Both the position numbers and the translations under genes were made by a program. Positions 5,991 through 50,390 of a stretch of 64,000 nt of DNA are shown piece after piece. The notes below the pieces were generated by a model. That model was not told the origin of the DNA. It saw nothing but the letters and a program-made list of their open reading frames with translations, and did no database searches. This DNA comes from Candidatus Zambryskiibacteriota bacterium. Lineage in GTDB: Bacteria > Patescibacteriota > Minisyncoccia > Phycocordibacterales > WO2-35-19. The stretch is taken from positions 33,947 to 97,946 of the forward strand of contig CAWJAC010000006.1 of assembly GCA_963840745.1 (NCBI GenBank), read 5' to 3'. The stretch's first letter is position 1. Every line of letters starts with the position of its first letter.

Positions 5991-5997
5991 GAGGGGG
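5975..5997. repeat. CCCCCTCTTA-N3-TAAGAGGGGG palindrome (family copy b)
   Basis: Perfect 10-bp arms; overlaps the 3' end of the DUF559 gene. Confidence 0.8.
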
Positions 5998-6008
5998 TAG
6001 GGGGTGAT

Positions 6009-9676: not shown

Positions 9677-10737
9677 ATGAATTTTTGGCAAAAAATGAAG
9701 AAACCCATTTTGTGTTTGGCGCCCATGGCCGATGTCACTGACGTGGCTTTTAGATTTATTATTGCTAAGTATTCGAAAGAATTGCAGAAGGTGCCCTTCT
9801 GCAATTATGTAACTTACACAGAATTTGTTTCGGCTGATGGGCTGGTGAGAGCGCCGGAGGCAGGTCGCAAGAAACTTTTGAAAGATTTGGAATATTCTGA
9901 AATTGAAAGACCTATTGTAGCTCAGTTTTTTACAAGCAAACCTGAAATGATGGAAAAGGCGGCGGCCTTGGCGGTTGAGCTTGGTTTTGACGGCATTGAT
10001 ATAAATATGGGCTGCCCAGATAAAAGTATTGAAAAGCAAAATGCCGGCGCGGCCTTAATGAAGAACTCTGAATTGGCTAGAGAAATAATTTTGGCGGCAA
10101 AACAGGGCGCCGGTAAATTACCGGTGTCGGTCAAGACTAGGGTTGGCTATAACAAAGATGAATTAGAAACATGGTTGCCAGAATTACTTGCTGAAAATCC
10201 GGCGGCGATAATTATTCATGCCCGCACTCGCAAAGAGATGTCTAAAGTGCCGGCTCAGTGGGCGCGCATAGCGCGGGCAGTTGAAATTCGTAATGATATA
10301 CAGAATTCAGAAAAATCAGAAAACATTGTTCCTGCGTCGGGTCTAAGGATAAGGCTCTTGAAACAATATTTTCTGATTTTTCTTTTCGAACTTTAATAAT
10401 AGGAAACGGTGATGTTGAAAATGTTGAAGATGCGATTAAAAAATGCGAAGAGAGCGGAGCCGATGGGGCAATGCTTGGTAGAGCAGTTTTTGGCAACCCG
10501 TGGTTATTTGCGGATTATCAGCCTACACTCGAAGAAAGGATTAAAGTTCTGTTGGAACATACCAAAACTTTTGAAGAAAAATTCAGCGGAGTAAAAAGTT
10601 TTGCTATTATGAAAAAGCATTTCAAAGAGTATTTGAAAGATTCTAACCTGAGAGACTTGAGATTTAAGCTCATGAAAGCCGAAAATTCTAAAGAAGTTGA
10701 GGAAATAATTTCAAATTTTGGGTTTCCAACTGAGTAG
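9677..10737 (+). CDS. dus: tRNA-dihydrouridine synthase, reading frame broken by an 80-nt hairpin insert
   Basis: ILCLAPMADVTD, GIDINMGCP, VKTRVG in ORF 9677-10396. IIGNGDVENVEDA...GADGAMLGRAVFGNPWLF is in a different frame (open from 10285). Removing 10310-10389 joins them in frame. Confidence 0.85.
10310..10382. other. Hairpin element copy 1: 21-bp stem (10310-10330 / 10362-10382) with a 31-nt conserved loop
   Basis: Arms gaaaaatcagaaaacattgtt / aacaatattttctgatttttc are complementary except one C/A, which is a G-U on the minus strand. The loop contains ctgcgtcgggtctaaggataaggctcttga. Confidence 0.75.
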
Positions 10738-11365: not shown

Positions 11366-11390
11366 CCCCTCCCTTAAAGTAAGGGAGGGG
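11366..11390. repeat. CCCCTCCCTTA-N3-TAAGGGAGGGG palindrome (family copy d)
   Basis: Perfect 11-bp arms. Confidence 0.8.
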
Positions 11391-15650: not shown

Positions 15651-16672
15651 TGTTTTAGGCACACACATATGGCGGATTGATTAACTGATAATTTCTTAGG
15701 AATTCGTTGGGCGTTTTGCCGTTTAATCCGCAATGTTCTAGATCATTGTAATACATCATTCCACACTTTCATTTAATTTGCAAATCTGTTGAAGTTTTTG
15801 AATTTGTATTTTTCGTAGAATTTTTCTTGATCTTCCCTATGACTTCTCTCCACAGTTCCGTTTTGAGCCGGTTTTCCCGGATCAATCAGATAATGGAGAA
15901 TATTGTGTTTGGCAGAAAATTCATCAAGGGAATGGAGGTTTCTTGAAGAAAGATCGGATCGTCTGTATGACCGAAATATTAGTTTGTGAAAATCTGACCA
16001 TTGTCTGTTTTAATGGCTTGGATTTTGTATTTGAATATTCTCCATCACATTTTCAGAAAAACAACCGAATGAAAATTTGATTTCTTCGTCGAATATACTG
16101 CCAGATGTCTCCAGCGAGAAGCGGTATCAATAGCGGTATATTGGTAATATCTTTTGTTTTCAACACGTCCTGGAACGTATTTAACATCAATTTCGACTAA
16201 TTCTCCCGGCTTGTCTCTAGTGCTTTGATGTATTTGTATGAAATCTTTCTTGACTCGGTATTTGTGTACCAAATTTTCTTTTTCAAAATCTTGCCGATAG
16301 TTCGTAGGTGAATTTAAAGTTCCTTCTTTTTTTAATTGCCAGTGTATTTTGAGAGCACACTTTTTGGTTTTCTTTCTGATCAAATGACTCTTTCCTTGAT
16401 CCATATCGGAGTCTCTCTGGTCTGAGTCTTGGGTTCAGTTGATTTGGGTTCCAAGTGACCAATCTCCATGCTTCTTGCACTTAGCCAGCCATCTCTCGAG
16501 ACTGCGTTTGCTGTGTGGACAGACCTTTACCACATCCACTAATCTTAACTGTCTGTATGCGATGGGGAGCACCCATCTCAATCTCTCTTCTTTGATTGTT
16601 TTTGCCATATGTATTGCCATTGCCCCATTCTAGGGGAAAACCGCCAAAAGAGTGTACACATTACCTAAAACA
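15651..16672 (-). mobile_element. IS481-like insertion sequence, decayed
   Basis: Terminal inverted repeats TGTTTTAGG at 15651-15659 and its reverse complement at 16664-16672. HTH fragment in ORF 16435-16620. rve core DVKYVPG...YYQYTAIDTASRW in ORF 16045-16404. Further fragments down to about 15660 carry stops and frame changes. Confidence 0.75.
15660..16620 (-). pseudogene. IS481-family DDE transposase, multiple frameshifts and stops
   Basis: As above. The C-terminal part (KTDNGQ..., YNDLEHCGLNGKTP) is readable only across broken frames. Confidence 0.7.
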
Positions 16673-16673
16673 C

Positions 16674-16701
16674 TTGACAGTATTTGTGGGTTTGATATAT
16701 T
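16674..16701 (+). promoter_or_regulatory. TTGACA-16-TATATT promoter (right part of module D) for the downstream secreted-protein gene
   Basis: cttgacagtatttgtgggtttgatatatt aligns with the module C promoter. AAGGAG SD lies 5 nt before the ATG at 16763. Confidence 0.6.
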
Positions 16702-16762
16702 TGTGGACGGAGAGAAATAAACGGATCTTTGAATTTTGAATTTTTGGTTTCAAGGAGCAGTT

Positions 16763-17674
16763 ATGACCACGACGACTCGAATTTTCGTGTTGTGCATGGT
16801 GGCCGTTGTGGTCACCGTGAGTGCGGTCGCGCAAGCACCGCAAAACTTCAATCGGCCGACGGCCGACGAACTCTTCAACCGCGCCGGCCTCACGGGTCCG
16901 CGCCACATCGCGTCTGCCATAGCGTCTGTCATGGCCGAAGTTAATGTCGCTGGGCAACCGCAGTTGGTGGAGCCCATTGCTGTTCTTCGCTCGCCGGGTA
17001 ACATCGTGTCGACGTCAACGGCACCGATTAACATTGACGTGAAGAAGGACTATGGGAGGTCAGTGTGGGTAGCTGGGGAGGTATACCGCAACGGCCAAAA
17101 GATCGGCGAAGCGGCATACGCGAACAAGAAGTACGCGCAGACCGCTTTCGGGCCCGGGTATTACACTTCCCTTACCGGCGGCGGCATCATTCCCTTTGAC
17201 GATGTGTCTACCGGCAACGCTGGGGACTGCACCATCGTGATCGTCCAGCTTTTTGACAGCGAGAACGGCGGCGCGCCCATTGGGCCGCCTATGACTACCA
17301 CGTTCTGGAATCGCGTCAAGCCCGTGTCTGCTGTTGCCCCGATGGTCGTGAACTCCGCCAGCATTTTGGCGGACGGCGCTTCCATGCAGGTGAACGGCAA
17401 CGGTTTTCCGACCGGCGGTCAGGCGATCATCGTCGAAACCGGGGATCCGGAGTGGGACAGCGGTTTTGTCGCCACCACCTCGGCCGACGGCAAGACCCTG
17501 CGTTTCGCAATCCCGACCGGCAAAACCGGCAACTTCCTCTATCCGAGGATGTGGGCGGCCCAGTCCAATTGGACTGTAGTCGTGACCACCCTGGACGGCA
17601 CGAGTGTAACCGCCCCCAACCTGCTCCAGGTTCAGGGCAACAGTCGCGACCTGACAGTCGCCCAAGTTCCATAA
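16763..17674 (+). CDS. Secreted protein with signal peptide and C-terminal IPT/TIG-like beta domain
   Basis: MTTTTRIFVLCMVAVVVTVSAVAQAP signal. Visibly GC-rich. Followed by a hairpin terminator (aaaacctcga...tcgaggtttttt). Confidence 0.7.
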   Translation: MTTTTRIFVLCMVAVVVTVSAVAQAPQNFNRPTADELFNRAGLTGPRHIASAIASVMAEVNVAGQPQLVEPIAVLRSPGNIVSTSTAPINIDVKKDYGRSVWVAGEVYRNGQKIGEAAYANKKYAQTAFGPGYYTSLTGGGIIPFDDVSTGNAGDCTIVIVQLFDSENGGAPIGPPMTTTFWNRVKPVSAVAPMVVNSASILADGASMQVNGNGFPTGGQAIIVETGDPEWDSGFVATTSADGKTLRFAIPTGKTGNFLYPRMWAAQSNWTVVVTTLDGTSVTAPNLLQVQGNSRDLTVAQVP

Positions 17675-17835
17675 CTTTCTCGCGCCAAACGGCGCTCGCT
17701 AACCAAAACCTCGATAGTATGGATTGTCTACGGACAGTTCATACCGTCGAGGTTTTTTCTTTATCCACTTTTTTTGTTGACCTCCAACCCGAACACTTAT
17801 ATAATATTTGTATATTTAATTTTATAAAATAATTT

Positions 17836-18369
17836 ATGGAAAATATTGAAAATAATCCATATCCTACTTCTTCCACTTCTCCTCGCAAAACAAACAAACG
17901 ACTAATTATTCTTGTTTGCATTTTGATAATTGCGGCTGCGGGCTGGGCTTATTATGCCTATAAAATCAAAAGTAAAAATAATGCAAGCCAACATCTGCCT
18001 CAAACTTTCTCGTTTACTGCCGAAACCAAACTTGCTTCTTCCCAGCTTCCCTCCGGATTTCCCAAAGATTTTCCGGCAAATAACGAAGTGGCATACGTTC
18101 TTTATAACTACAATGGCGAAACTAACGACAAGCTTGCGGGCGTGAGGGAATTTACCACCACAAGGTCGGTGCAGGAAGCTTACCAATTTTACCATAGTTA
18201 TTTTTCACAATTGGGATGGACAATGGACCCCTCCCAGCAACTGTCCACTAACCACATAGATACCTATGCGACGAATGGTTCATTTTACGCTTCCATCAAA
18301 ATCGACTCTTATCCCCAAGCTTCCAAACATGTGAAGGCACTGGTATTAATAGTCATTACTTCCGATTAA
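17836..18369 (+). CDS. Membrane-anchored hypothetical protein
   Basis: 177 aa; one TM segment (LIILVCILIIAAAGWAYYAY) after a polar N-terminus. Confidence 0.55.
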   Translation: MENIENNPYPTSSTSPRKTNKRLIILVCILIIAAAGWAYYAYKIKSKNNASQHLPQTFSFTAETKLASSQLPSGFPKDFPANNEVAYVLYNYNGETNDKLAGVREFTTTRSVQEAYQFYHSYFSQLGWTMDPSQQLSTNHIDTYATNGSFYASIKIDSYPQASKHVKALVLIVITSD

Positions 18370-18387
18370 AAGTAACTTATTTTTGCC

Positions 18388-20872
18388 ATGAAAAAATTTC
18401 AGTGGTTTCGCATAGCTGTTGGTTTTAGCCTATTTTTTAGCCTATTTTTATTTTTTGGCGCCAAGAGCCTGCATGCTGACAGCATTTGCAGCAACCCCAC
18501 TTGCAATACTGATTATTATTGCGACAACGGTACTTGCGTATGCAGCAGTCAATCGTTGTGCGGCAACAATTGCGATAACGGCAACGGCGTTTTATGCTCC
18601 GACGGCACTTGCGTTTCTGATGTTGCGGATTGTGGAGCCGGTCATGGGTGTCCGCAAGAAGCGCCGTGCTATGATAGCGGTAGCGGTACTTGTTGCGCTG
18701 CTGATCCCAACGGTTCCATTGGCTGTAGTCTAGGGTGCGGAGGAAGCACTGGAGGCGGTACGTGCACCGGCGATTCGGATTGCACCGGCGGCGCGCGTTG
18801 CGTAAACGGGGGTTGTACCACTGCTTGTACTGTGACGTGCAACAACAATTCGGATTGCGGGACGGATGAGTGGTGTGATGATCCGGGCGCTTGCGGAGCC
18901 TATTGCGTGTCTAATTTTGAACACAGCGTATGTGAAGGCTCTTCCTGTAGGACATATTCAGGCCCCGGTGACATGGACTGCGGTTCCGATGCCGATTGCG
19001 CTCCCAGTCCAACTTGCGTCAACGACGGCACTTGCCACAGCGGGGAAACCTGCAATCTTTGCCCCGTTGATTGCGGCGCCTGCATTGTTAACGGAGCCTG
19101 CCAAAATCCTCCCAACGGCAACATCTATGTTACGGCTCCGACCGGGACTTTATGCAGTAGCGGCATCGCTAGCCCTTCCACCCTTAGCGGCAGCGGCCCC
19201 TGGTCTTGGCAATGTACCAGCCCTAACGGTGGCACCACTGCTTCCTGTTCCGCCTCCGTTCCCAATCAGCCCACGCCCACATTACCGCTACCCCGGACTT
19301 CCTGCCAAGCACAGGAGGCGCCACCCAAGTTTACGCGGCTTCTACCAATGCCAATAATTGTTATGTGACTTCCAGCCCCACTGTGGACGCGGGGTTCTGG
19401 ACAACGCTTGGGCCATACACATACAATCCTTACATAAACATCTCCGATGTAACCCAAACTACCGTTTTTACCGAAACCTGCACCTATAACAGCCCGGCTT
19501 ATCCCTACTACATTCTTGGCCCCGTGACCAGTTCCGTGACGGTCAGTGTCGGTACAATCATTGGAACTTTAACCCCCTGCGAAACCGATATGTGTGCCAT
19601 GACTTATTATGGCGACGGGACAAATCCGGCCAACGCCACCTATCTTTACTATCCGTCCCATGATCAAATGATTTCCAGTTATTGTATTCCAGTATACGAC
19701 AATTGCAGCAGCCCGGCTTACAACATCAACGGCACGAATTATTGGATTAGGGAAGGCGGCAAAGACACCACGACTTGTTTAAACCTGCAAACGCCGGTTC
19801 CGGCTTGCGTGGTTCCTCCTCCGACCGGTCTTACCGGCACTTGTCCTTCTCCGAACACCACGGCCAACTTGAGTTGGACTGCTCCTTCGGGCTACAATAC
19901 TTTTTATGTTCGCTTAAATTCCACTGAAATGGCGGTTATACATGGCCGATTCCGAGCGGAATATCCACGTCAGTCACTGGTACCACATGGAATCCTCCAA
20001 CCACCGCGGGTCAAACTTACTCTTGGTGGGTGAGTACCGCCGGCCCAAGTGGAACTTACAGCAGCGATGCTGTTGGAAGTATCAGTTGTATCACTATCCC
20101 CACCACTCCCACCGGCCTCTCGGTCACTCCCAGCACCTGCGGCAACAACTGGCTCAACATTTCTTGGAACGCTTCTGCCGGAGCCACTTCATATCAGGTC
20201 TATCGCGATGGAGGACCTTTTCCTGTCTACAACGGATCAAGTCTGGCTTTCTCTGACACCGGACTTGCTTTAGGATCAAATCATTCATATACAGTTAAAG
20301 CTACAAACGCGCAAGGTTCTTCATCTTTAAGTGCTTCGGTGTCTAATACAGTAGCGTCTGCCTGTGCGGTTGCCACTGCCAATATAAGTGCTGATTCAAA
20401 TAGTATTCCATACAATACCTCTACCACTTTGCATTGGTCATACTCCAATGCCACTTCCTGCACCATTACTCCACCGGCTACTATCGGAGGTTATCCAAGC
20501 GGTTCGGGCAGTGTTTCCACCGGCAATTTAACAGTTAGCAGAACGTACACCATTTCTTGCAACCCCGGGAATACAAATTCCAGCGCTACAATTAATGTTA
20601 CAGGCGGGTCAAATGATTTATGTATTACAAAGTCAGGGCAAGGGACGGTTACTCTTAATCCTGTGGGAACACCGGATTCAACTTGTTGGAGTTATGGTTC
20701 AGGCGCTACAGTTCAACTTACTGAAAATCCTGGATCAGGCAGGGTATTTACCGGGTGGGGAGGTGACTGTGCTTCCTTTGCTAAAAGTGTAAGCTGTAAT
20801 TTAATAATGAATACCTCCAAAAGTGTTATTGCCAACTTCATGGTAATAGATCCTAATTACAAGGAGTTTTAA
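18388..20872 (+). CDS. Large secreted cysteine-rich protein with FN3-like and InlB B-repeat-like C-terminal domains; two frame changes as assembled
   Basis: Signal peptide, then dense Cys repeats (CDNGTCVC, CTGDSDCTGGARCVNGGC). FN3-like segment LSVTPSTCGNNWLNISWNASAGATSYQVYRDG. C-terminal GRVFTGWGGDC...VIANF. Frame switches near 19260-19285 and 19926-19930 (gaaatgg, an A-run). Confidence 0.7.
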
Positions 20873-20877
20873 ACTTC

Positions 20878-21243
20878 GTGAATGTTTTTGTATTTGGAAA
20901 TATAAATTTAGACAATGATTCGCTGCCATTGCGAATTTTGCCGCGGCTGCAGGAGAAGTTTCCCGATATTGAGTTTGAAATTAGGGATCCAAACGAAGAG
21001 TGGGAGGTACCGGAAGAGTTTGTCATTATTGACACCGTTATTGGTATAAAAGGAGTAAGGGTTTTTAAAACTTTGGATAAATTTTTGTCTGCGCCTCGGG
21101 TCTCAATGCACGACTTTGATTTTTTAACTAATCTGCAATATCTATCCAAGCTCGGCAAAATTAAAAAAATAAAAATCATCGGCGTGCCGCCGGATATGAA
21201 AGAATCAGAAGCTATAAAAAAAGTGAGCGCTATCTTGCGATAG
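20878..21243 (+). CDS. Hydrogenase maturation endopeptidase-like protein
   Basis: VFVFGNINLDNDSLPLRI...EFVIIDTV...SMHDFD resembles the HycI/HoxW pattern. Adjacent to hydrogenase genes. Confidence 0.55.
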   Translation: MNVFVFGNINLDNDSLPLRILPRLQEKFPDIEFEIRDPNEEWEVPEEFVIIDTVIGIKGVRVFKTLDKFLSAPRVSMHDFDFLTNLQYLSKLGKIKKIKIIGVPPDMKESEAIKKVSAILR

Positions 21244-23453: not shown

Positions 23454-23475
23454 TTTTATTATATCACGTCAAAAA

Positions 23476-24144
23476 TTAATCAAGAGTGTCAAAGGTTCCC
23501 TTTGACACTATCCTTTTATATAATTTTGTGTTTTCATTTATGAAATTTTTGGTGCCCCCAAATATTTCGGTTAGAAATTGTTTGTGAACTATATGGTTTT
23601 TTCTATCAAAAATAAAATCATTATAACTGCTCCATTTGTATTCTTGCGGTTCATTCACAACTTTATCTTTTACTGGGTTCATATGAATATAGGAAGAGAT
23701 GAGCATCAATTGCGGATCAGTTTTTATTGGTACAGCTTTGAAAGCATCTTGAAAAACATGCCCAACTCTTTTGTGTTTTAGGTTTATGTATTTGGAGAAA
23801 CTGGTAAATACTTTTAATACAAGTTTTGAAATTGATTCCTCCCCACATTGTTCTATTAAAAGATGTATGTGATTTGGCATTAAACAGAAAGCATGTAATT
23901 TAAAACTTTTTGATTCTAAACTTTCTATTCTTATCCTTGATTTGGGGGATTTGGTTATTTCACTTTTATTTAAATCTCCTTTTTCAATCCCAAGACCCAA
24001 CCCTAATCTGAAAAGGAAAGCTCGATAGTCCTGTTCATCGCGGAATATGATCTCCTTGTTATTCCCACGGTTATAAAGATGATATATAGAACCTTTGGCA
24101 AAGTTTTTATAATCTCTGTTTCCCATACCATAGTTATACCACAA
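23476..24144 (-). CDS. IS200-like Y1 transposase of the REP-associated (RAYT) type
   Basis: FCLMPNHIHLLIE (HUH motif) and SSYIHMNPVK (catalytic Tyr region). Flanked on both sides by the same hairpin. Confidence 0.8.
   Translation of the reverse strand: MWYNYGMGNRDYKNFAKGSIYHLYNRGNNKEIIFRDEQDYRAFLFRLGLGLGIEKGDLNKSEITKSPKSRIRIESLESKSFKLHAFCLMPNHIHLLIEQCGEESISKLVLKVFTSFSKYINLKHKRVGHVFQDAFKAVPIKTDPQLMLISSYIHMNPVKDKVVNEPQEYKWSSYNDFIFDRKNHIVHKQFLTEIFGGTKNFINENTKLYKRIVSKGTFDTLD
23485..23509. repeat. REP hairpin, left of RAYT: agtgtcaaagg ttc cctttgacact
   Basis: Perfect 11-bp arms. Overlaps the RAYT stop region (codes VSKGTFDTL). Confidence 0.85.
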
Positions 24145-24150
24145 ATAGAA

Positions 24151-24172
24151 GTGTCAAAGGTTCCCTTTGACA
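24151..24172. repeat. REP hairpin, right of RAYT: gtgtcaaagg ttc cctttgacat
   Basis: Same core as 23485-23509; 9-10 bp arms. Confidence 0.85.
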
Positions 24173-24229
24173 TCTTTCGGTTATAGCAAATCTTGTGCTT
24201 GGGCGCACAGTTAGTGTTATAATAATTTT

Positions 24230-25684: not shown

Positions 25685-26467
25685 AAGATCTGACAACAAA
25701 AGTAAAAATAACGTGGTGCCCGGGTTGCCCAAACTCGCAGATTTTGGTTGCTTTCAGGCAAGCCGTCAAAGAGTTGGTTGAAAATGGTAATTTAAATATT
25801 GAGAATCTGGTGGCTTTCGCTGGTATAGGCTGTCATGGCAAAATTTCAGATTATATAAATATCAATTCTTTCACATCTCTCCATGGTCGGCTCATTCCGG
25901 CTATGACAGGCGCCAAATGCGCCAATCGGAACCTGACCATTGTCGGCTTTTCCGGTGATGGCGATTCTTACGACGAAGGCATTGAACATTTGATTCACGC
26001 CGCTAAAAGAAATTCAGATATAAATCTTTTTGTTCATGACAATCGTGTTTTTGCTCTGACTACCGGCCAATTTGATGCCATGAGTCCCAAGGGATTTAAA
26101 AGCAAATCAACCCCATTTGGCAGTATTGAAGAGCCATTTAACCCGCTGCTCCTCATGCTTGCCTCTGGAGCCACATTTGTGGCGCGCACTTATGCTGGAG
26201 ATATTTCCGGCACAAAAAAAATAATGCAGGCCGCTATTGCTCACAAAGGATTTTCATATGTGGATATTATTCAGCCTTGTCTTACTTTTTACGATACTCG
26301 AGATTATTTTAAGAAAAAGGTTTATTGGCTGCACGGAAGATTTTCCCAAATACGATCTGAAAGCGGCAATGGAAAAAGTGCAGGAAAATGAGGACGAGAA
26401 AGTTCCGCTGGGAATATTTTATGAAGTACAAAAACCGACATTTGAAGAAGAATTATGGAAAATTTAG
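25675..26467 (+). CDS. 2-oxoacid:ferredoxin oxidoreductase beta (TPP-binding) subunit, one frame change near 26320-26340
   Basis: WCPGCPNSQIL, GIGCHGK, GDGDSYDEG. The C-terminus EDFPKYDLKAAMEKV...FEEELWKI continues in the frame of ORF 26237-26467. Confidence 0.8.
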
Positions 26468-28470
26468 AAAAATTTTTTAATCCTAAATCGGTCGCAGTTA
26501 TCGGAGCAAGTTCTGATAAAAATAAAGTTGGCTTTGCTTTGATGGCGAATCTGCTTGCCGGCAAGAAGAGGGAAATTTATCCTATTACTCTGGGCGAAAA
26601 AGAAATACTCGGCATTCCTGCTTTTGTCTCGGTTTTAGATGTATCTGAAAAAATTGATTTGGCTATTATTGCCGTCCGGGCCGATATTGTGCCTCAAGTG
26701 TTGTCCGACTGTGGTAAAAAGGAAATACCAAATATCATTGTTGTCTCGTCAGGTTTTAAAGAAATAGGTCCGGCAGGCAAAAAGCTTGAAAATCAAATTG
26801 CAGCCATAGCCAAGCAAAACAACATGACAATTTTAGGGCCAAATTGTCTTGGAGTTATTGATACAAAAAATGATTTGAATGCCTCCTTTTCTCCGCAAAA
26901 ACCACTTGCCGGAAAAATCGCTCTTTTGTCTCAATCGGGCGCTTTGGGCACGGCAATGCTCGACTGGGCTATCGGCGAAGGGGTCGGTTTTTCAAAATTT
27001 GTAAGTTTGGGCAATGAGGCACAGCTGACAGAAATAGATTTCCTTAAGTTTTTGAAAGATGACGACGATACGGATTCCATTTTAATTTATTTGGAAAAAG
27101 TTAGCGATGGTCCGGAATTAATGCGTCTTTTAAAATCAATAACACCAAAAAAGCCGGTTGTCATACTCAAAGCCGGAGTGAGCGATTATGGAGCTTCTGC
27201 CATTATGTCCCACACTGGCTCTTTAGCGCCGGAATCCAGAGTTTTTACTGCTGCTTGTCAGCAAGCCGGTGCCATTATGGTGCCTTCGCTCCGCAAGTTT
27301 TTTAATATTTCCAAACTCTTATCACTTGGAGTCAAGGTAAACGCGCCCATTTCGCGCCTCATAGTTTTGACCAATGGAGGCGGACCATCCGTCATTGCTG
27401 CCGATGAGATCGGACTTTCCCGTTCCTTGTCTTTGGTTTCAATTCATGAAGATGTCAAAGAGAAATTAAGAGGGGTTCTACCGAGCATGGCGGCGGTCGG
27501 CAATCCTGTCGATATAATAGGCGATGCCTTGGCGGAACGATACGAAAAGGCTCTCGATATTTTATGCGGTGTCAAAGATGCAGACGGCATTATCGTAATG
27601 CTCACTCCGCAAATGATGACCGAGGCGGAAGCGACGGCTCATTTGCTTTCAAAATATAAAAATAAGAAAAAAATATTTCCAGTATTTATTGGCGGTCCAT
27701 CTATACAAGCTGGCCGTAGTGACTTGCTGCAGTCTGGCCTTGTTAATTTTGCTTTTTCAAAAGATGTGGTTTATGGGTTGGACAGCTTGGCAAACTATGC
27801 TCCAAAAATTTTGCTGTCAAAGACGGCCTTTGTCTTTGACAGTGTCTCTCAGATGCCATTTGAAGATATGACTAAAATTTTAGGTGAATATAATATTTCA
27901 ATAAAAGGAAAATTCATAAACAGAAAAGAAGATTTAGAAAACGCTCTCAGAGAATGCGGAGAAGGTCCTTATGCTATGAAAGCCATATCAAATAATATAG
28001 TTCACAAAATTGATGTTGGTGCTGTCAAGTTAAATATTTCAAATTTGGAAGAAGCTAATGTTGTTTGGGAAGAAATGTGGCAAAAATTTGTGCAGCTGGA
28101 TGGCATATTGATTCAAAAAATGGCTGAGGGCAAGGAAGTTATAATTGGTATGAAAAGAGATGCAACATTTGGCCCAACAATTCTTTTTGGTTTGGGTGGC
28201 ATTTTGGCAGAAGCTATAAAGGATACCGCTTTGCGAATTGCTCCTATAGAAAAAGAAGAAGCCTTTAAAATGATGCAAGAAATAAAAGGCATCAAAATAT
28301 TACAAGGTATGCGTGGCGAGCCGCCCGTAAATTTTGATTTGCTTGCTGATATTATCATAAATCTCTCTCGCCTCGCTCTTGACCATCCCGAAATAAAAGA
28401 AATAGACCTCAATCCCGTCATAGCCGCCGAATCTTCTGCGGCTATTGTTGATGTTAGATTAATGATTTAA
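26455..28470 (+). CDS. ADP-forming acetyl-CoA synthetase (fused alpha/beta; CoA-binding plus ATP-grasp)
   Basis: 671 aa. FNPKSVAVIGAS, SQSGALG, HTGSLA, then the C-terminal ATP-grasp part. Confidence 0.8.
   Translation: MENLEKFFNPKSVAVIGASSDKNKVGFALMANLLAGKKREIYPITLGEKEILGIPAFVSVLDVSEKIDLAIIAVRADIVPQVLSDCGKKEIPNIIVVSSGFKEIGPAGKKLENQIAAIAKQNNMTILGPNCLGVIDTKNDLNASFSPQKPLAGKIALLSQSGALGTAMLDWAIGEGVGFSKFVSLGNEAQLTEIDFLKFLKDDDDTDSILIYLEKVSDGPELMRLLKSITPKKPVVILKAGVSDYGASAIMSHTGSLAPESRVFTAACQQAGAIMVPSLRKFFNISKLLSLGVKVNAPISRLIVLTNGGGPSVIAADEIGLSRSLSLVSIHEDVKEKLRGVLPSMAAVGNPVDIIGDALAERYEKALDILCGVKDADGIIVMLTPQMMTEAEATAHLLSKYKNKKKIFPVFIGGPSIQAGRSDLLQSGLVNFAFSKDVVYGLDSLANYAPKILLSKTAFVFDSVSQMPFEDMTKILGEYNISIKGKFINRKEDLENALRECGEGPYAMKAISNNIVHKIDVGAVKLNISNLEEANVVWEEMWQKFVQLDGILIQKMAEGKEVIIGMKRDATFGPTILFGLGGILAEAIKDTALRIAPIEKEEAFKMMQEIKGIKILQGMRGEPPVNFDLLADIIINLSRLALDHPEIKEIDLNPVIAAESSAAIVDVRLMI
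27814..27842. repeat. REP-like palindrome inside the acetyl-CoA synthetase ORF: ctgtcaaagac ggccttt gtctttgacag
   Basis: Perfect 11-bp arms. Core TGTCAAAG shared with the RAYT-flanking REPs. Translated in frame as LSKTAFVFDS. Confidence 0.75.
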
Positions 28471-29698
28471 GGTCAAAGTTTGGATCGGACAATTCTGATT
28501 CGTGGCCGGAGACTTTGAAGTTGGATTCAATCAGTTTGTTTACGATAGACATATCTTGTGTGCGGTTGATAAATGTGGCGCCTATGATTTCGTCATTGCT
28601 ATCCACAATAATCCGCGCGAACCCGCCTTCGCCAAGCTTCGGCGAGGCAAGGCCGCGTTTTATTACTTTTTTTGAAGAGTCAACTCTCACGTCTCCAGAC
28701 ATAGCAATATTCAAACCAAAGCCCATGGCCGTGTAAAAAGAAACCATCCTAAATTGATTTATTTGGCCAAGCATATTTAAGGCAGCAGTACGGCCTTGCA
28801 TCTGGGCATTAACCCAATTGCCAAGCTGGACTCTTTCGCCCAACACAAGATCATTAAATTCAGCTACATCGCCAGCGGCATAAATATTCGGAATATTTGT
28901 TGCTAAATACTCGTTGGCTAAAATACCTTTGTTTGTTTCAATGCCGGCTTGCTTTAACCAATCCAAATGGCAAATTAATCCTATGCCGACGAGAGCCAAC
29001 TGGCAGGGAATCTGAGTGCTATCTTTTAAAACAACACCTTCAATTTTTTGGTCTCCCAAAATTTCAGAAACTTCAGCTTCACGCAAAATTTTAATACCAC
29101 CATTTTCCATGCCGGATTCAATCATTTTGGCAGACTCTTCATCCAAAAGTGGATACCAATAATATGGCTCGCGCATGATAAGAGTCACAGGAAGTCCGGC
29201 CAGACGCATCATCTCGCACATTTCAAAACTGACAAATCCTGAGCCGATAGCGATGGCTTGTTTTGCTGTTTTAATATTTTCCATAAGCACTTCAGCCTCA
29301 CTCAAGTCGCGCAAGTAACAAATACCTTTTTTGTCAGATCCGGGAATTTGCCAAGGTCTGGCTTCGCCACCGGTAGCGAGTAAAAGCTTTTCGTATTTTA
29401 AGATTTTACTGTTATTAAGTTCAATAGTTTTCAATTTTATATCTAACTTATTAGCCACTACGCCTTCAATAAATTCAATTTTGTTTTCTTCATACCATTC
29501 TTTTTTGCGCAGCCAAACGGAATCAAATGGAATTTTACCTAAAAAGAAATTTGGTTTGGAGAGCATAATGCGTGAATAAAAACGCGGCTCATCGGAAACT
29601 ATGGCGATACTTCCGTCTTTATCATTTTGGCGCAAAGTTTCAGCGGCCGTCGTACCGGCCACTCCACCGCCTATTATGAGATATTTATATTCACTCAT
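28454..29698 (-). CDS. FAD/NAD(P)-dependent pyridine nucleotide-disulfide oxidoreductase
   Basis: YLIIGGGVAGTTAAE and AIGSGFVSFE dinucleotide folds, AAGDVAEF. Confidence 0.75.
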   Translation of the reverse strand: MSEYKYLIIGGGVAGTTAAETLRQNDKDGSIAIVSDEPRFYSRIMLSKPNFFLGKIPFDSVWLRKKEWYEENKIEFIEGVVANKLDIKLKTIELNNSKILKYEKLLLATGGEARPWQIPGSDKKGICYLRDLSEAEVLMENIKTAKQAIAIGSGFVSFEMCEMMRLAGLPVTLIMREPYYWYPLLDEESAKMIESGMENGGIKILREAEVSEILGDQKIEGVVLKDSTQIPCQLALVGIGLICHLDWLKQAGIETNKGILANEYLATNIPNIYAAGDVAEFNDLVLGERVQLGNWVNAQMQGRTAALNMLGQINQFRMVSFYTAMGFGLNIAMSGDVRVDSSKKVIKRGLASPKLGEGGFARIIVDSNDEIIGATFINRTQDMSIVNKLIESNFKVSGHESELSDPNFDLKSLI

Positions 29699-29713: not shown

Positions 29714-29787
29714 AAAAACAACAGAAACATCATTTCTGCGTTAGGTCGCAAGGATAAGGCTCTTGAAATGATATTTCTGTTGTTTTT
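29714..29787. other. Hairpin element copy 2: 23-bp stem (29714-29736 / 29765-29787) with a 28-nt conserved loop
   Basis: aaaaacaacagaaacatcatttc / gaaatgatatttctgttgttttt with one C/A (a G-U on the minus strand). Loop tgcgttaggtcgcaaggataaggctctt. Intergenic, within a minus-strand operon. Confidence 0.75.
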
Positions 29788-30072: not shown

Positions 30073-30294
30073 CTAATTTTCTATAATAATTTGTTTTATT
30101 TCCGGAACTTCTTCTTTAATCATTCCGCCAATCATTTCATTGAATGTCTCATCGGAGAAAGAACAACCAACGCAAGCCCCTGACACCTTAAGTTTAACAA
30201 CTCCCTCTTTAATGTCCACCAAAGAAACATCCCCGCCGTGCATAACTATGTATGGCCGCATTTTTTCTATTATTTTTTTAATTTTGTTTTCCAT
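30073..30294 (-). CDS. NifU C-terminal-domain (Nfu-type) Fe-S assembly protein
   Basis: MRPYIVMHGGDVSLVDI...LKVSGACVGC. Confidence 0.75.
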   Translation of the reverse strand: MENKIKKIIEKMRPYIVMHGGDVSLVDIKEGVVKLKVSGACVGCSFSDETFNEMIGGMIKEEVPEIKQIIIEN

Positions 30295-30943
30295 AATACT
30301 TCTCCGTATAAAATCTTATTAATTCTTCTACTTTTGGCAGACATTCAGGATAGCCTATGCCGACTTTGGTGCGTTTTTGGACAGCGAGAAGGGTAGTGGC
30401 GCCTTCCAAAACCGCTTCTTCAATGTCGGCTTCTGTGGTTTTGGTATTTGGGTCTATAATTTGGGTGCCTTCTACAATAATTCTACTAAATTGCTTCGTT
30501 TTTTTGAACCAATCATTTATAGCGGCCCGCAATGCTTTGTCGCCCAGGACTGAGCAATGAATTTTCCTGTCAGGCAATCCTCCCAATCTTTTAATAATAT
30601 CCTGCGGTTTTATTTTAAGCGCTTTATCAATTTTCATGCCACCTTTTTCAGTAACCATGATCGAGAGCATTGAAGTTGAGGCTATGGCCGAAGCGCAGCC
30701 GAAGGTGCGCCATTTGAAATCAGTGACTGTGTCATTTTTTAAATTTATGTTGAGCCAGACTCGCATTACGTCACCGCAGGCGGGGGAGCCGACAATGCCC
30801 TCAGCATCATATTTAGCCTCCTTTGGATTTTCCCACAAGATATTTTTAGGTTTAAAAAAATGCTCCTTTACTTCTTTTGAGTAAGCCCAAGTATTGCCGG
30901 TAAACTTGTTTACTACATCTATTTTTTTATTTTGTTTTGCCAT
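30278..30943 (-). CDS. IscU/NifU N-terminal scaffold protein with C-terminal extension
   Basis: GSPACGDVMRVWL, FGCASAIASTS, KIHCSVLG. Confidence 0.8.
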   Translation of the reverse strand: MAKQNKKIDVVNKFTGNTWAYSKEVKEHFFKPKNILWENPKEAKYDAEGIVGSPACGDVMRVWLNINLKNDTVTDFKWRTFGCASAIASTSMLSIMVTEKGGMKIDKALKIKPQDIIKRLGGLPDRKIHCSVLGDKALRAAINDWFKKTKQFSRIIVEGTQIIDPNTKTTEADIEEAVLEGATTLLAVQKRTKVGIGYPECLPKVEELIRFYTEKYYGKQN

Positions 30944-46959: not shown

Positions 46960-47851
46960 TTATTTTTGGCCACGGAGGAAATCTTCAAAAGGCATTTCTT
47001 TTTTACCTTCAGGTATAACTGAAAGTATTTTTAGTGAATCATTTTCCAAAGTTGCATCTGTAATAATCACCCTCATTTTTTTTCCATTTCTTTCAAGGAA
47101 AAAATAAGCCGTCGGCCACTCTTCAAAAGCTTTTATTTTTAAAAGATTTTGATAAGCGTCTTTTTCTAGATTACTCAAATCAATTTGAAGCTCACCGTCT
47201 TCTTTTTCTACTTTTTTGCATAAGGTTGCCTTGCTTTCATCCTGCGCTGTTAGTTTAATTTTCCCATCTAACCATTCTGGCAAAATTTGAGCGAATAATT
47301 TTGCACCTTCTATGGCCAATATTTTTTCGAGTTCTTTTCTATTTGGAATTTGGAATTTGTCATTTGAAATTTCCAGTTGTCGTGCAACGACAACTGGTCC
47401 TGTATCCATCCCCTCATCAATTTGCATAATGGTTACTCCAATCTCTTTTTCATCATTCAAAATTTGGCTTTGAATGGGGGAGGCGCCGCGATATTTTGGC
47501 AGGAGGGAAGGATGAATGTTTAAAGTTTTATGCTCAGGGATTTCAAAAATTTCTTTGGGAATTATTTTACCGTATGAGGCAACAAGGAAAAGATTATAGT
47601 TATTTGGATGACAGATTATAGATAAGAGAAGCGTTATCTTTTTTTAGAGAGACAGGATTGATAACTTCAATATTGTTATTTTGTGCCCAGACTTTTACTG
47701 GTGTCGGAGTGAGCACCAATTTTCTTCCTTTTGGTTTATCTGGCGTAGTAATAACAAGCTCAGGCAAAATACCACGAGCTCTTAATTCATCTAGAACATA
47801 AACACTAAATTGTGAACCTCCAAAAAATACCCAGTTTATTTTATTTGTCAT
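46960..47851 (-). CDS. fmt: Methionyl-tRNA formyltransferase, one frame change near 47610-47645
   Basis: N-terminal VFFGGSQFSV. After a frame switch: LFLVASYGKIIP...LNIHPSLLPKYRGASPIQ...IMQIDEGMDTGPV. Confidence 0.85.
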
Positions 47852-48464: not shown

Positions 48465-50390
48465 TCACAATAAATTATTGGGGTCTACTTTTAGTTCAAA
48501 GTGGGGAGGGAGAGATTTTAAAATTGCTAGCAAATTTTGATCTACCCATTTTTCTTTAGGCAATTTTATGACAGCATTAACGGCTGATTGCTCACCTCGT
48601 TTTTCGTGAGTAGAGGGAAAGATAGCTGGGTTGTAATCTTTAAAAATATTTTTTAAATTTTCAGATTCTTTAGCCACGAAATTTCTAGTACCCCTGACTG
48701 TTATTTTTATAAAAATACCGAATGGCGGATAGCCCAAAACTTCTCGGTCCTCTATTTCTTTTTTATAAAATTCTATAAGGTTGCCACTTACAGCAAATTC
48801 CACAGTAGGATCATTTGGATTGCGAGTTTGTATTAAAAAATTTTCTTTGGCTATATTTTTGGTCTGTACAATTAGGCGAAATATTTTTTCTCTGATGCAA
48901 AAGTCTGGGATAGAGAAAAGGGAATCAAAAGAAGCTATAGCAGTAGTCGCCACTTTTTTTCGGAGGAATGAGAAAGCCATTTCAGTGCCCAAAAGCACTC
49001 CGCCTCTGTTTTCATAAAACTTTTCCGCAGTGGCAGATGCTTTAGTATCGGTTGGAGTGATGTCTTTGTGGATTTCAAAAAGATTTATGTTTGGAATGCT
49101 TTTCCTTATCTCATCAGCTACTCGGTCTAGCCCCGCGCCAAAGGCCGCCAGTTTCCAGCTGCCGCAATTTTGGCAGACCTCGGCTGCATCGCGCATCTCT
49201 CCGCATTGATGGCATTTAAAAGCGCCACCGTCCCTTGTCTTATATAAAATCATAGGCGACGAGCAGTTGTTGCATTTGACTTGCTCGCCGCAATCGCGGC
49301 AGACAGTGACAGAAGAGAGACCTTTCCTAGCGGCAAAAATAAACATATTAGAGCTTTTTTCCGTGTTTTCTTTTATCATATTCAGCAATTCCGGAGATAA
49401 AGTTTTAAATTCTTTTCCTTGCCCTGAACTTGTCGAAGGGTCTTTCTTGCTTGATTCTCTCAAATCCACTACCTCTGTTTTAACTTCAGACGGCAGTCTC
49501 CATTTGACGCTTTCAAACTCTCCGACTTCTCCTTGTTTGTATCTATACAAAGTTTCTGTTCGGAGGAATGAATCCCCAATTACTGCGCGTATATTTTTTT
49601 TGTTCGCCAAAATCTCGGCAAAAAATCGCAGATCCATGAACGGCCGTGATAAAGTTTTCCAACCGTTTTCATTTTCTTTGTCTATAATCACAGTGCCAAA
49701 ATCATTTCTTGGCAAAAATAGCCATTTAGCGGTGGCGATGACGAGTATCGGATGCGGAGTCAAACAAGCTTTTTTCCATTCCTCTTTCAGTTCTTTTTTG
49801 TTCATTTCATTATGGAAAGAGCAGACGAATAATTCTATGCCGCGTTCCAAGTTTTCTTTGATGAGTTTGACGTCTTCATTTTGCGGCAGGCAGAGAAAGA
49901 CCGATCTTTTTTTAGCAAACTCTTCTCTGATAAGCGATCTGTAGAGAGACAGTCTTTCTTCGTCCGGAGCCTGAAGCACAGTCACTTCGTTTTTGGTGTT
50001 GTCAAAGACGGTCTTTGACAGTTGTCCCGAAAAGACTGTCTTTGACAACACGCTTGGATTTTCCAAAACAAAAGAAGGAATTAATTGGGACAAAACGCTT
50101 CCTTGGTTGGTAGCAAAATATTCTGCCGTTTCTTTGACTACCTCCAAAAATTCTTTTTGCAAAAATGGTTTGGCTGTGACGGCTGAAATTTTTTTGAGCT
50201 GGAAATCGGCTGACTTTATTTCAGATTTTGCTTCTGTGACATCTCGGCTCTCTAAAACCAGTGCTGATACTGCTTTGCTTCTAATATTTATTTTGACGAG
50301 AGAACCTGGTTCCAAATATTTTGGTCCGAAGTAGGAGAGTGATTCCTTATTCAACCCCTTTGAAAATGGGAGACATTCGATAATAAACAT
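48465..50390 (-). CDS. priA: Primosomal protein N' (PriA helicase)
   Basis: 641 aa. Cys-rich zinc region CRDCGEQVKCNNCSSPM...CHQCG...CQNCGS and helicase-like core. Confidence 0.8.
   Translation of the reverse strand: MFIIECLPFSKGLNKESLSYFGPKYLEPGSLVKINIRSKAVSALVLESRDVTEAKSEIKSADFQLKKISAVTAKPFLQKEFLEVVKETAEYFATNQGSVLSQLIPSFVLENPSVLSKTVFSGQLSKTVFDNTKNEVTVLQAPDEERLSLYRSLIREEFAKKRSVFLCLPQNEDVKLIKENLERGIELFVCSFHNEMNKKELKEEWKKACLTPHPILVIATAKWLFLPRNDFGTVIIDKENENGWKTLSRPFMDLRFFAEILANKKNIRAVIGDSFLRTETLYRYKQGEVGEFESVKWRLPSEVKTEVVDLRESSKKDPSTSSGQGKEFKTLSPELLNMIKENTEKSSNMFIFAARKGLSSVTVCRDCGEQVKCNNCSSPMILYKTRDGGAFKCHQCGEMRDAAEVCQNCGSWKLAAFGAGLDRVADEIRKSIPNINLFEIHKDITPTDTKASATAEKFYENRGGVLLGTEMAFSFLRKKVATTAIASFDSLFSIPDFCIREKIFRLIVQTKNIAKENFLIQTRNPNDPTVEFAVSGNLIEFYKKEIEDREVLGYPPFGIFIKITVRGTRNFVAKESENLKNIFKDYNPAIFPSTHEKRGEQSAVNAVIKLPKEKWVDQNLLAILKSLPPHFELKVDPNNLL
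49996..50051. repeat. Nested REP-like palindromes inside priA
   Basis: gtgttgtcaaagac (49996-50009) pairs perfectly with gtctttgacaacac (50038-50051). Inner tgtcaaagac / gtctttgaca at 50000-50020. Translated as LSKTVFSGQLSKTVFDNT. Confidence 0.75.

What the first reader, a model, noticed from the sequence alone, without database searches (positions are those of the whole stretch)
27814..27842. REP-like 11-bp palindrome embedded in frame in the acetyl-CoA synthetase inter-domain region
**Seen in the sequence**
- ctgtcaaagac-ggccttt-gtctttgacag has perfect 11-bp arms.
- It lies inside an intact 671-aa ORF and is translated as LLSKTAFVFDSV.
- It falls between the CoA-ligase part and the ATP-grasp part.
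- The core TGTCAAAG / CTTTGACA is the same as in the RAYT-flanking REPs. The two innermost stem positions are changed on both arms (GG/CC to AC/GT).

**Inference**
A REP-family element appears to have been inserted and tolerated as coding sequence in a linker. Alternatively the structure has a regulatory role, such as a translational pause or an RNase site, inside the mRNA.
Basis: partly seen in the sequence, partly recalled or inferred. Interest (0 to 1): 0.55.

Follow-up and report, generated by a model that had tools for sequence, protein, structure and literature searches.

The report
Decayed REP hairpin translated as enzyme linker
The palindrome is a worn-down copy of a small mobile hairpin repeat (REP) that sits next to its own transposase-like gene 4 kb away, and here it is read through as the floppy linker of an acetyl-CoA synthetase; in this bacterial group such repeats lie inside genes more often than not, always in one reading frame.

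Summary
Observation confirmed. CTGTCAAAGAC-ggccttt-GTCTTTGACAG lies at 27814-27842, in frame (L454-S463) in a 671-aa ADP-forming acetate-CoA ligase, at the junction of its alpha-like and beta-like halves. This is the only pLDDT<50 segment of the model.

It is a REP-family element. The same core flanks a RAYT-like gene (23476-24144) and recurs inside PriA (49996-50051). The "AC/GT" variant is the canonical 21-nt REP (TGTCAAAGAC-S-GTCTTTGACA) of many Patescibacteria, where it flanks RAYT homologues 55-81% identical to this one.

It does not add about 10 residues. This linker ties for shortest of 60 orthologues. Orthologue DNA shows an older REP doublet at the same site (L001), of which the window copy is an internal-deletion remnant. 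No evidence supports a regulatory role.

Wider context:
- 45 of 81 exact copies in related genomes lie well inside long ORFs, at 31 independent sites.
- All of them use the frame that reads x-SKTVFD-x.
- Several replace native codons with no length change, which simple insertion does not explain.

Intragenic REPs are already described (Di Nocera 2013; Rickettsia RPEs). I therefore call this a new variant of a known kind, of moderate interest.

The parts
27814..27842 (+). The 29-nt palindrome: perfect 11-bp arms CTGTCAAAGAC / GTCTTTGACAG with spacer GGCCTTT. It encodes L454-S463 (LSKTAFVFDS). I read it as REP1's left 18 nt (CTGTCAAAGACGGCCTTT) fused to REP2's right 11 nt after an internal deletion.
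   Evidence: Sequence. Alignment with the L001 and L002 ACD linkers. Predicted RNA hairpin -18.7 kcal/mol (z -3.35) and DNA hairpin -12.1 kcal/mol (z -3.8). Identical in an independent assembly.
26455..28470 (+). Host gene: fused ADP-forming acetate-CoA ligase (ACD), 671 aa. The element lies at the junction between its alpha-like and beta-like halves.
   Evidence: ORF. Pfam CoA_binding, Succ_CoA_lig, Ligase_CoA_2 and ATP-grasp_5. PDB alpha chains cover residues 1-449 and beta chains 475-670. In the AlphaFold model the only pLDDT<50 segment is 456-462, with no secondary structure between 446 and 466.
23476..24144 (-). RAYT-like Y1 (HUH) transposase gene. Its C-terminus (…YKRIVSKGTFDTLD) runs through the left flanking REP.
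   Evidence: Pfam Y1_Tnp E 1.8e-10, above cut-off. NCBIfam REP_Tyr_transpos 67.3 bits, E 1.3e-18, below the cut-off of 80. Aligns to E. coli TnpA-REP 4er8 over the HxH (PNHIHLL) and Tyr (YIHMNPVK) motifs. Homologues 55-81% identical lie between or next to REPs in 8 other Patescibacteria loci. The gene is absent from the syntenic site in L002.
23485..23509 (.). REP flanking the RAYT on its 3' side: AGTGTCAAAGG-ttc-CCTTTGACACT, a perfect 11-bp inverted repeat.
24150..24174 (.). REP flanking the RAYT on its 5' side, between the RAYT gene and the divergent POR-alpha gene: GTGTCAAAGG-ttc-CCTTTGACAT.
49996..50051 (-). Second intragenic copy: a REP doublet inside the PriA-like ORF (48465..50390, -). 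It contains one exact 21-mer TGTCAAAGAC-G-GTCTTTGACA (50000-50020) plus a degenerate partner. It encodes VLSKTVFSGQLSKTVFDNT in the hypervariable PriA linker.
   Evidence: (I4: 21-nt arms, 95% complementary).

Best explanation
The palindrome is a decayed member of a REP family, a short hairpin-forming repeat associated with a single-copy RAYT (Y1/HUH transposase). The family is spread through Patescibacteria (Paceibacteria, Zambryskibacteria-like).

Proposed history:
- A REP doublet of two inverted roughly 21-nt units, giving about 17-nt arms and a loop of about 14-18 nt, occupied the alpha/beta linker of the fused acetate-CoA ligase. This was before the window's lineage split from those of L001 and L002.
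- In the window's lineage an in-frame internal deletion removed the loop and the inner right arm. What remains is CTGTCAAAGACGGCCTTT|GTCTTTGACAG, which still forms a perfect 11-bp stem.

Why it survives:
- It sits in a disordered linker with no length or sequence constraint.
- It lies in the frame that reads L-SKT…VFD-S. This frame is stop-free and is the only one seen for intragenic copies of the family.

What is shown: family membership, RAYT association, position in the protein, presence in orthologues, and the deletion relationship. What is inferred: that RAYT moved it, and that it is now functionally neutral for DNA, RNA and protein.
For: - Shared core with the two RAYT-flanking REPs and the PriA copy: 4 hits against 0 expected.
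About 0.5 exact 21-mers are expected by chance in 596 Gb under uniform base composition (my arithmetic).
- That palindrome lies next to RAYT homologues 55-81% identical to the window's in L175, L134, L209, L146, L172, L159, L170 and L226, as flanking pairs where both sides are in the locus.
- L001 carries CTGTCAAAAACAGCCTT-N18-AAGGCTGTCCTTGACAG at the same codons. L002 keeps AAGGCCGTCTTTGACAG. In the alignment the window copy equals the L001 copy minus 43 alignment columns.
- The same doublet architecture is seen in PriA of the window, L249 and L251, and in L163, L164, L178, L191 and L225.
- Quentin et al. [quoted passage not shown]
- The linker is hypervariable in 60 orthologues and hosts other palindromic families. 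L250 has 15-16-nt arms; L002 has a perfect 13-nt inverted repeat.
- The encoded residues 456-462 are the only pLDDT<50 segment of the model.
Against: - The source genome could be sampled only over 64 kb. There the AC/GT type has just two copies, both intragenic, and the local RAYT is flanked by the GG-ttc-CC type. Activity of this RAYT on this variant is therefore not shown.
- No empty site exists among ACD orthologues, so insertion as such is not demonstrated for this locus.
- At other loci the family appears by exact 21-for-21-nt replacement rather than insertion. The mechanism of arrival may therefore not be classical transposition.
- The retained perfect 11-bp stem after deletion could also mean that pairing is under selection.
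Confidence: 0.72

Rival explanations
1. The palindrome family is a functional DNA motif, for example the binding site of a dimeric protein or a DNA-uptake or recombination signal. On this view it is written into genomes in situ by selection, biased uptake or templated conversion, and the ACD copy is one such site rather than transposon debris.
For: - At several loci the perfect 21-mer aligns without gaps to native codons of orthologues. Examples are LigA HFVSKTVFD against HFVSKAAFD and HFVSRRVFD, LigA EGEIWMSKTVFDKLN against EGEVWLGKNNFKKLN, an RT-like protein, a methyltransferase, ThrRS and LeuRS.
- At the LigA site two species carry two different but both perfect palindromes, GAC-C-GTC and GGC-A-GCC.
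- All 45 copies well inside long ORFs, at 31 independent sites, use one of the two open frames.
- Orthologous sites in different species keep the exact 21-mer while flanking residues diverge.
Against: - Density is low: 4 per 64 kb in the window, and 0 to 2 per locus in five 19-64 kb stretches. Known uptake sequences occur about once per kb (my knowledge).
- The tight association with RAYT genes in at least 9 genomes is the REP signature.
- In the unbiased orthologue sets, copies decay freely or are absent. This holds for the ACD linker, PriA and LigA, where none of the 55 orthologues that could be parsed have VSKTVFD.
- Conservation at orthologous sites was ascertained by searching for perfect matches, so it is biased.
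- The ACD copy itself is truncated.
Confidence: 0.15
2. The hairpin acts in the ACD mRNA as a translational pause between the two halves of the enzyme, or as an RNase or stability element.
For: - The predicted RNA hairpin is stable: -18.7 kcal/mol, z -3.35, with 1 of 200 shuffles folding as well.
- It sits exactly at a domain boundary.
- Orthologue L001 keeps pairing through a change on both arms, ACGGCC to ACAGCC paired with GGCTGT.
Against: - Most of the 60 ACD orthologues have unrelated linker sequences, and L242 and L243, read at the DNA level, show no copy of this palindrome. A pause hairpin is therefore not a conserved feature of the gene.
- L002 has lost the left arm.
- There is no Rfam match.
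- The same element occurs in many unrelated proteins at positions that are not domain boundaries.
- The both-arm change is equally expected if each genome's copies track its own REP master sequence.
Confidence: 0.06
3. The palindrome is a coincidence, produced by codon usage in a low-complexity linker.
For: - One perfect 11-bp inverted repeat per 64 kb is not rare: 0.42 expected.
- The 11-mer with up to 2 mismatches is only weakly enriched: 26 hits against 15.35 expected, and 2 of 100 shuffles reach 26.
Against: - The arms are identical over 10-11 nt to a repeat family that flanks RAYT genes.
- The orthologue L001 has the longer version of the same hairpin.
- The 8-mer core is enriched 6-fold.
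Confidence: 0.02

Closest known systems
REP / REPIN - RAYT (TnpA-REP) systems of Proteobacteria (Nunvar 2010; Bertels & Rainey 2011, PMC3116915; Ton-Hoang 2012; Quentin 2018, PMC6006769)
   Same: - Short hairpin-forming palindromes that flank a single Y1/HUH transposase-like gene.
- Inverted doublets (REPIN-like) that form longer hairpins.
- Genome-specific variants that keep stem complementarity.
- Derivatives made by central deletion of a dimer.
   Different: - There is no GT[AG]G or CGTC tag at the foot of the hairpin.
- The unit is a nearly perfect 21-23-nt palindrome with a 1-3-nt centre.
- More than half of the copies are intragenic rather than extragenic.
- The RAYT scores below NCBIfam's REP_Tyr_transpos cut-off.
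- The host phylum is Patescibacteria. My searches of the paper library found no report of this.
Intragenic REPs (Di Nocera et al. 2013, PMC3733652) and Rickettsia palindromic elements (RPE; Ogata 2000, cited from my own knowledge)
   Same: - Palindromic repeats lie in frame inside housekeeping genes and are translated.
- Replication and repair genes and tRNA synthetases are prominent hosts. Here the hosts are PriA, UvrA, UvrC, LigA, Pol III delta', LeuRS and ThrRS.
   Different: - The published cases are insertions that add 20-50 residues. Here the unit is 7 codons.
- A single reading frame is used at all 31 independent sites.
- Several copies replace native codons with no change in length.
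- RPEs are much longer elements (about 100-150 bp, from my own knowledge).
DNA uptake sequences (Haemophilus USS, Neisseria DUS)
   Same: The motif is found inside genes without indels, in preferred reading frames and in tolerant parts of proteins.
   Different: - Density is roughly 20-50 times lower.
- The motif is a perfect palindrome.
- It flanks a RAYT gene.
- No link to the competence machinery was tested.

Membership tests
REP-RAYT system (REPtron) | Short (20-40 bp) imperfect palindrome able to form a hairpin | tested here: met
   The 29-nt element has an 11-bp stem. The predicted folds are more stable than those of shuffled sequences. The canonical units are 21-23 nt.
REP-RAYT system (REPtron) | A Y1/HUH transposase-like gene (RAYT) flanked by copies of the repeat | tested here: met
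   Window ORF 23476..24144 (-) lies between the REPs at 23485-23509 and 24150-24174. Related RAYT genes (55-81% identical) lie beside copies of the 21-nt repeat in L175, L134, L209, L146, L172, L159, L170 and L226; flanking pairs are seen in six of them.
REP-RAYT system (REPtron) | RAYT protein with an HUH motif and a catalytic Tyr, and membership of the curated RAYT family | tested here: inconclusive
   Pfam Y1_Tnp scores 41.4 bits, above its cut-off of 23. HxH (NHIHLL) and YIHMNPVK align to 4er8 TnpA-REP, but only at E 0.21. NCBIfam REP_Tyr_transpos scores 67.3 bits, below its cut-off of 80, though far better than transpos_IS200 at 17 bits.
REP-RAYT system (REPtron) | Many dispersed copies within one genome | tested here: inconclusive
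   Only 4 palindromes were found in the 64-kb window. The rest of the source genome could not be read.
REP-RAYT system (REPtron) | Conserved GT[AG]G (or CGTC) guide tetranucleotide at the foot of the hairpin | tested here: not met
   The feet read xTGTC…GACAx. CGTC occurs only at the centre of the 21-mer, where the centre base is C or G in 73 of 81 copies. It does not occur at the foot.
REP-RAYT system (REPtron) | Extragenic location | tested here: not met
   Two of the 4 window copies, and 45 (or 51 counting ORF edges) of 81 copies in related genomes, lie in ORFs of at least 150 aa.
Rickettsia palindromic elements (RPE) | Palindromic element of about 100-150 bp inserted in frame, adding tens of residues, restricted to Rickettsia | tested here: not met
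   The units here are 21-52 nt. The ACD linker is not lengthened. The host is a Patescibacterium. The resemblance is in behaviour only.
DNA uptake signal sequences | Very high genomic density (about 1 per kb) of a short oriented motif | tested here: not met
   There are 4 palindromes per 64 kb, and between 0 and 2 in each of the four roughly 20-kb loci. The centre-base orientation is 20:20 on the coding strand.

The most novel reading that the evidence does not exclude
The TGTCAAAG…CTTTGACA palindromes of Patescibacteria may be more than inserted junk. On this reading they are copied into housekeeping genes by a templated, length-preserving process, such as RAYT-dependent conversion of sites whose native peptide already resembles x-SK-x-x-FD-x, or they are selected as a DNA signal.

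That would explain three observations:
- All 31 independent intragenic sites use one frame.
- Some copies replace exactly 21 nt of conserved coding sequence (LigA, ThrRS, LeuRS, a methyltransferase).
- Different species hold different but perfectly symmetric variants at the same codon positions.

The ACD copy would then be a relic of that process.
Probability: 0.2. Interest if true: 0.75.

Novelty: new variant of a known kind. Interest (0 to 1): 0.5.

Why it matters
- For annotation: odd, recurring peptides such as SKTVFD, SKGTF…KVPFD, PRGGLEE…LRPPLR and QGxPFGAGAVQG occur in the variable linkers of Patescibacteria housekeeping proteins. The DNA read here shows that they are translated palindromic repeats, not functional protein motifs.
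- For mobile-element biology: the result extends REP-RAYT systems to an ultra-small-genome phylum with almost no intergenic space. There the repeats live mostly inside genes, under a strict one-frame filter.
- For the mechanism of REP spread: the length-preserving copies, if confirmed, bear on the unsolved question of how RAYTs spread REPs.
- For the ACD gene itself: the consequence is probably nil.

Tried and rejected
Only L057 had a pair of hits, and it has no RAYT.
- The search for related loci on metagenome contigs with the ACD protein returned only two usable orthologues, L242 and L243. Neither holds a copy of this palindrome.
Per-genome copy numbers could therefore not be obtained, and the source genome was not recovered.
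- DNA for PriA orthologue P0126 (peptide MSKVPFDS) was unavailable.
- A PDB search with the 122-aa linker fragment alone found nothing.
- Rfam gave only a tRNA in the window and nothing at the site.
- Literature searches for the motif strings, and for REP or RAYT together with CPR or Patescibacteria, found nothing relevant. One search was rejected for syntax.
- The solitary 11-mer at 2142-2152 lies in a 548-aa ORF (not annotated here) in a different frame (VKD), and I treat it as chance.
- A bias in the orientation of the centre base relative to transcription was tested and is absent, at 20 C to 20 G.
Full report
**1. The observation**

The sequence at 27814-27842 is CTGTCAAAGAC-GGCCTTT-GTCTTTGACAG, with perfect 11-bp arms. 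It lies in the 671-aa ORF 26455..28470 (+) and encodes L454-S463, in the context ILLSKTAFVFDSV.

The protein is a fused ADP-forming acetate-CoA ligase:
- Pfam finds CoA_binding, Succ_CoA_lig, Ligase_CoA_2 (303-376) and ATP-grasp_5 (471-671).
- Solved archaeal alpha subunits align to residues 1-449. Beta subunits align to 475-670.
- The palindrome therefore sits at the junction where two separate subunits are fused.

An AlphaFold model built on 35 orthologues has mean pLDDT 87.6. Its only segment below 50 is residues 456-462 (KTAFVFD). There is no secondary structure between 446 and 466. An independent assembly holds the identical 29-mer.

**2. Is it more than chance?**

Taken alone, hardly. 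A Markov-1 model expects 0.42 perfect inverted repeats (arms of at least 11 bp, loop of 10 nt or less) per window. The window has six, so there are other palindromes too.

The core tells a different story:
- TGTCAAAG occurs 16 times against 2.67 expected.
- GTCAAAG-N(1-25)-CTTTGAC occurs four times against 0.00 expected.
- Two of the four are GTGTCAAAGG-ttc-CCTTTGACA(C/T), flanking ORF 23476..24144 (-).
- One is the finding.
- One lies inside a PriA-like ORF at 49996-50051, where it forms a doublet encoding VLSKTVFSGQLSKTVFDNT.

**3. The flanked ORF is RAYT-like**

- Pfam Y1_Tnp gives E 1.8e-10, above its cut-off.
- NCBIfam REP_Tyr_transpos gives 67.3 bits, E 1.3e-18. That is below the curated cut-off of 80 but far above IS200.
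- The HxH and Tyr motifs align to E. coli TnpA-REP 4er8, although weakly.
- In the syntenic locus L002 (hydrogenase, POR alpha/beta, ACD, Pyr_redox, NifU) the hydrogenase and POR genes are 35 bp apart. In the window they are 776 bp apart. The RAYT and its two REPs are therefore an insertion.

**4. The AC/GT variant is the canonical REP of related genomes**

I scanned one genome per species for TGTCAAAGAC-N(1-31)-GTCTTTGACA. About 16 chance hits are expected in 596 Gb across all gap lengths (my arithmetic).

- 81 matches are the exact 21-mer TGTCAAAGAC-N-GTCTTTGACA. By record title most are in Patescibacteria MAGs (Zambryski-, Nomura-, Paceibacterota); some records are titled 'Saccharibacteria'.
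- The centre base is C or G in 73 of 81. The next outer pair is Watson-Crick in 46 of 81.
- Pairs of copies spaced about 640-920 bp bracket RAYT homologues 55-81% identical to the window's. These are in L175, L134, L209, L146, L172, L159 and L226. L170 has a RAYT homologue next to a single copy.
- The closest RAYT (L175, 81% identical) is flanked by the GAC-S-GTC type. The window's RAYT is flanked by the GG-ttc-CC type.

**5. History of the ACD copy**

The linker is hypervariable in 60 orthologues. The window's linker is tied for shortest: 22 aa between A446 and F469, against a median of 27 and a maximum of 47. It is also shorter than in the solved fused homologue 8wzu_A. No extra residues can be shown.

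Two orthologues share the palindrome's peptide, and their DNA explains why:

| Locus | aa identity to window ACD | Sequence at the linker site |
|---|---|---|
| L001 | 75% | CTGTCAAAAACAGCCTT-[18 nt]-AAGGCTGTCCTTGACAG; 17-nt arms, 15/17 complementary |
| L002 | 65% | keeps only AAGGCCGTCTTTGACAG, preceded by a different perfect 13-nt inverted repeat |

In the alignment, the window copy equals the L001 copy minus 43 alignment columns. The missing part is the loop plus the inner right arm.

The same doublet architecture appears elsewhere. It consists of outer arms TGTCAAAGAC and inner arms GnnCTTT / AAAGnnC. It is seen at the PriA site of the window, L249 and L251, and in L163, L164, L178, L191 and L225. 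Central deletion of an inverted REP dimer is a route already proposed for other REPs (PMC6006769).

**6. The linkers are landing pads for several palindromic families**

- The PriA region between LIPSFILEN-P and EVAILQAPDEER is hypervariable in 79 orthologues. It carries recurrent peptides such as LSKTVFDN, LSKTPFLGQLSKGVFDN, MSKVPFDS, LSKGTFWDRDSLKVPFDS, PRGGLEENxLRPPLR and QGxPFGAGAVQG.
- Three of these types were checked in PriA DNA and are palindromes (LSKTVFDN in L248, LSKTPFLGQLSKGVFDN in L249, LSKGTFWDRDSLKVPFDS in L251). The two types shared with ACD linkers (PRG..LEE..LR.PLR in L250, QGxPFGAGAVQG in L002) were checked in ACD DNA and are palindromes as well. MSKVPFDS could not be checked.
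- Two types occur in both ACD and PriA linkers of different genomes.
- The closest PriA orthologue (80% identical) lacks the element yet has the same linker length.

**7. Wider pattern, beyond the finding**

Of the 81 exact 21-mers:
- 45 lie well inside ORFs of at least 150 aa.
- 6 lie at ORF edges.
- 30 lie outside long ORFs.

The 45 fall into 31 independent sites, and all are read as x-SKTVFD-x. The other open frame, CQR(P/R)SLT, is never used inside a long ORF. The third frame contains TGA.

By sequence features or tblastn alignment to orthologues, the hosts I read as PriA, UvrA, UvrC, LigA, Pol III delta', LeuRS, ThrRS and RNase H; apart from PriA these were not scanned against Pfam. This echoes the published enrichment of intragenic REPs in replication and repair genes and tRNA synthetases (PMC3733652).

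Some sites are clean insertions of 6 or 7 residues. Others align without gaps to native codons:

| Protein | With the REP | Orthologue without it |
|---|---|---|
| LigA, site 1 | HFVSKTVFD | HFVSKAAFD, itself a perfect GGC-A-GCC palindrome; and HFVSRRVFD |
| LigA, site 2 | WMSKTVFDKLN | WLGKNNFKKLN |
| RT-like protein | LSKTVFD | LDRHVED |
| Methyltransferase | KMSKTVFDKW | KLNKNLPKKW |

The native LigA motif in this clade is VSKxAFD, and none of the 55 orthologues that could be parsed have VSKTVFD. Simple transposition does not predict length-preserving replacement. I leave this unexplained. Possibilities are insertion next to a quasi-site followed by collapse, short-patch conversion, or selection on the DNA motif.

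**8. Function**

I found nothing that points to a role for the ACD copy:
- There is no Rfam match.
- The element is absent, truncated or different in most orthologues.

The predicted hairpins are stable: RNA -18.7 kcal/mol and DNA -12.1 kcal/mol. Incidental effects on translation or replication therefore cannot be excluded.

**9. Comparison and verdict**

The element behaves like a REP or REPIN of a RAYT system, and like the intragenic REPs and RPEs already described. As a family member it meets three defining features: the hairpin, the RAYT flanking, and the doublets. It fails two classical ones: the GTAG or CGTC foot tag, and extragenic location.

My searches of the paper library found no description of REP-RAYT systems or translated palindromes in Patescibacteria. 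I rate it a new variant of a known kind. The ACD copy itself is an ordinary relic. The family's one-frame rule and its in-situ copies are the interesting part.

Noticed in passing
Loci L123-L241 (for example L175:6438-6458, L191, L194:3959-3979, L147:5410-5430, L174:4770-4790): The exact 21-nt REP is read as x-SKTVFD-x at all 31 independent intragenic sites. At several sites it replaces native codons with no length change. At one LigA site two species hold different perfect palindromes (GAC-C-GTC and GGC-A-GCC).
   Followed up: partly
window 9780-9806: A perfect 12-bp inverted repeat, AATTGCAGAAGG-tgc-CCTTCTGCAATT, lies inside the Dus-like ORF 9677..10396 (+) and encodes ELQKVPFCNY. Its inner part, GAAGGTGCCCTTC, resembles the PriA hairpin of L251. 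It is probably another translated REP-like element.
   Followed up: partly
window 5974-5998 and 11366-11390: Two similar perfect 11-bp inverted repeats lie outside long ORFs: ACCCCCTCTTA-aga-TAAGAGGGGGT and CCCCTCCCTTA-aag-TAAGGGAGGGG. They could be a second palindromic family or terminators.
   Followed up: no
window 47373-47397: A perfect 11-bp inverted repeat, CCAGTTGTCGT-gca-ACGACAACTGG, lies inside the Fmt-like ORF 46960..47460 (-), within a stretch of the protein that looks conserved (GPVVVARQL).
   Followed up: no
window 29714-29787: An inverted repeat with 23-nt arms (96% complementary) and a 28-nt loop lies in the intergenic region between the Pyr_redox ORF (28454..29698, -) and the NifU-like ORF (30278..30943, -).
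   Followed up: no
window 23454-24229 compared with L002:7391-7426: The RAYT gene and its two REPs occupy a 776-bp gap between the hydrogenase small-subunit gene and the POR-alpha gene. In the syntenic relative this gap is only 35 bp, so the whole unit was gained (or was lost in the relative).
   Followed up: yes
L250:about 2960-3010 (ACD linker) and L002:11363-11440: Other palindromic families occupy the same ACD linker in other genomes. One is CCAAGGGGAGACCTT-N14-AAGGTCTCCCCTTAGG, encoding PRGDLEENSLRSPLR. Another is AAGGGCACCCCTT-N17-AAGGGGTGCCCTT, encoding QGHPFGAGAVQGVPL. Similar peptides occur in the PriA linkers of yet other genomes.
   Followed up: partly
window 16000-20900: A block with GC 0.48-0.51, against about 0.40 elsewhere, carries Thr/Ser/Pro-rich ORFs (19365..20872) with repeated 'PTGL…' modules. 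It may be a surface protein or foreign DNA.
   Followed up: no
L176:6641-6682: A GAC-type REP and a GG-nnn-CC-type REP lie directly adjacent inside one 282-aa ORF, encoding KVPFDMSKTVFD. Both variants therefore coexist in one genome.
   Followed up: no
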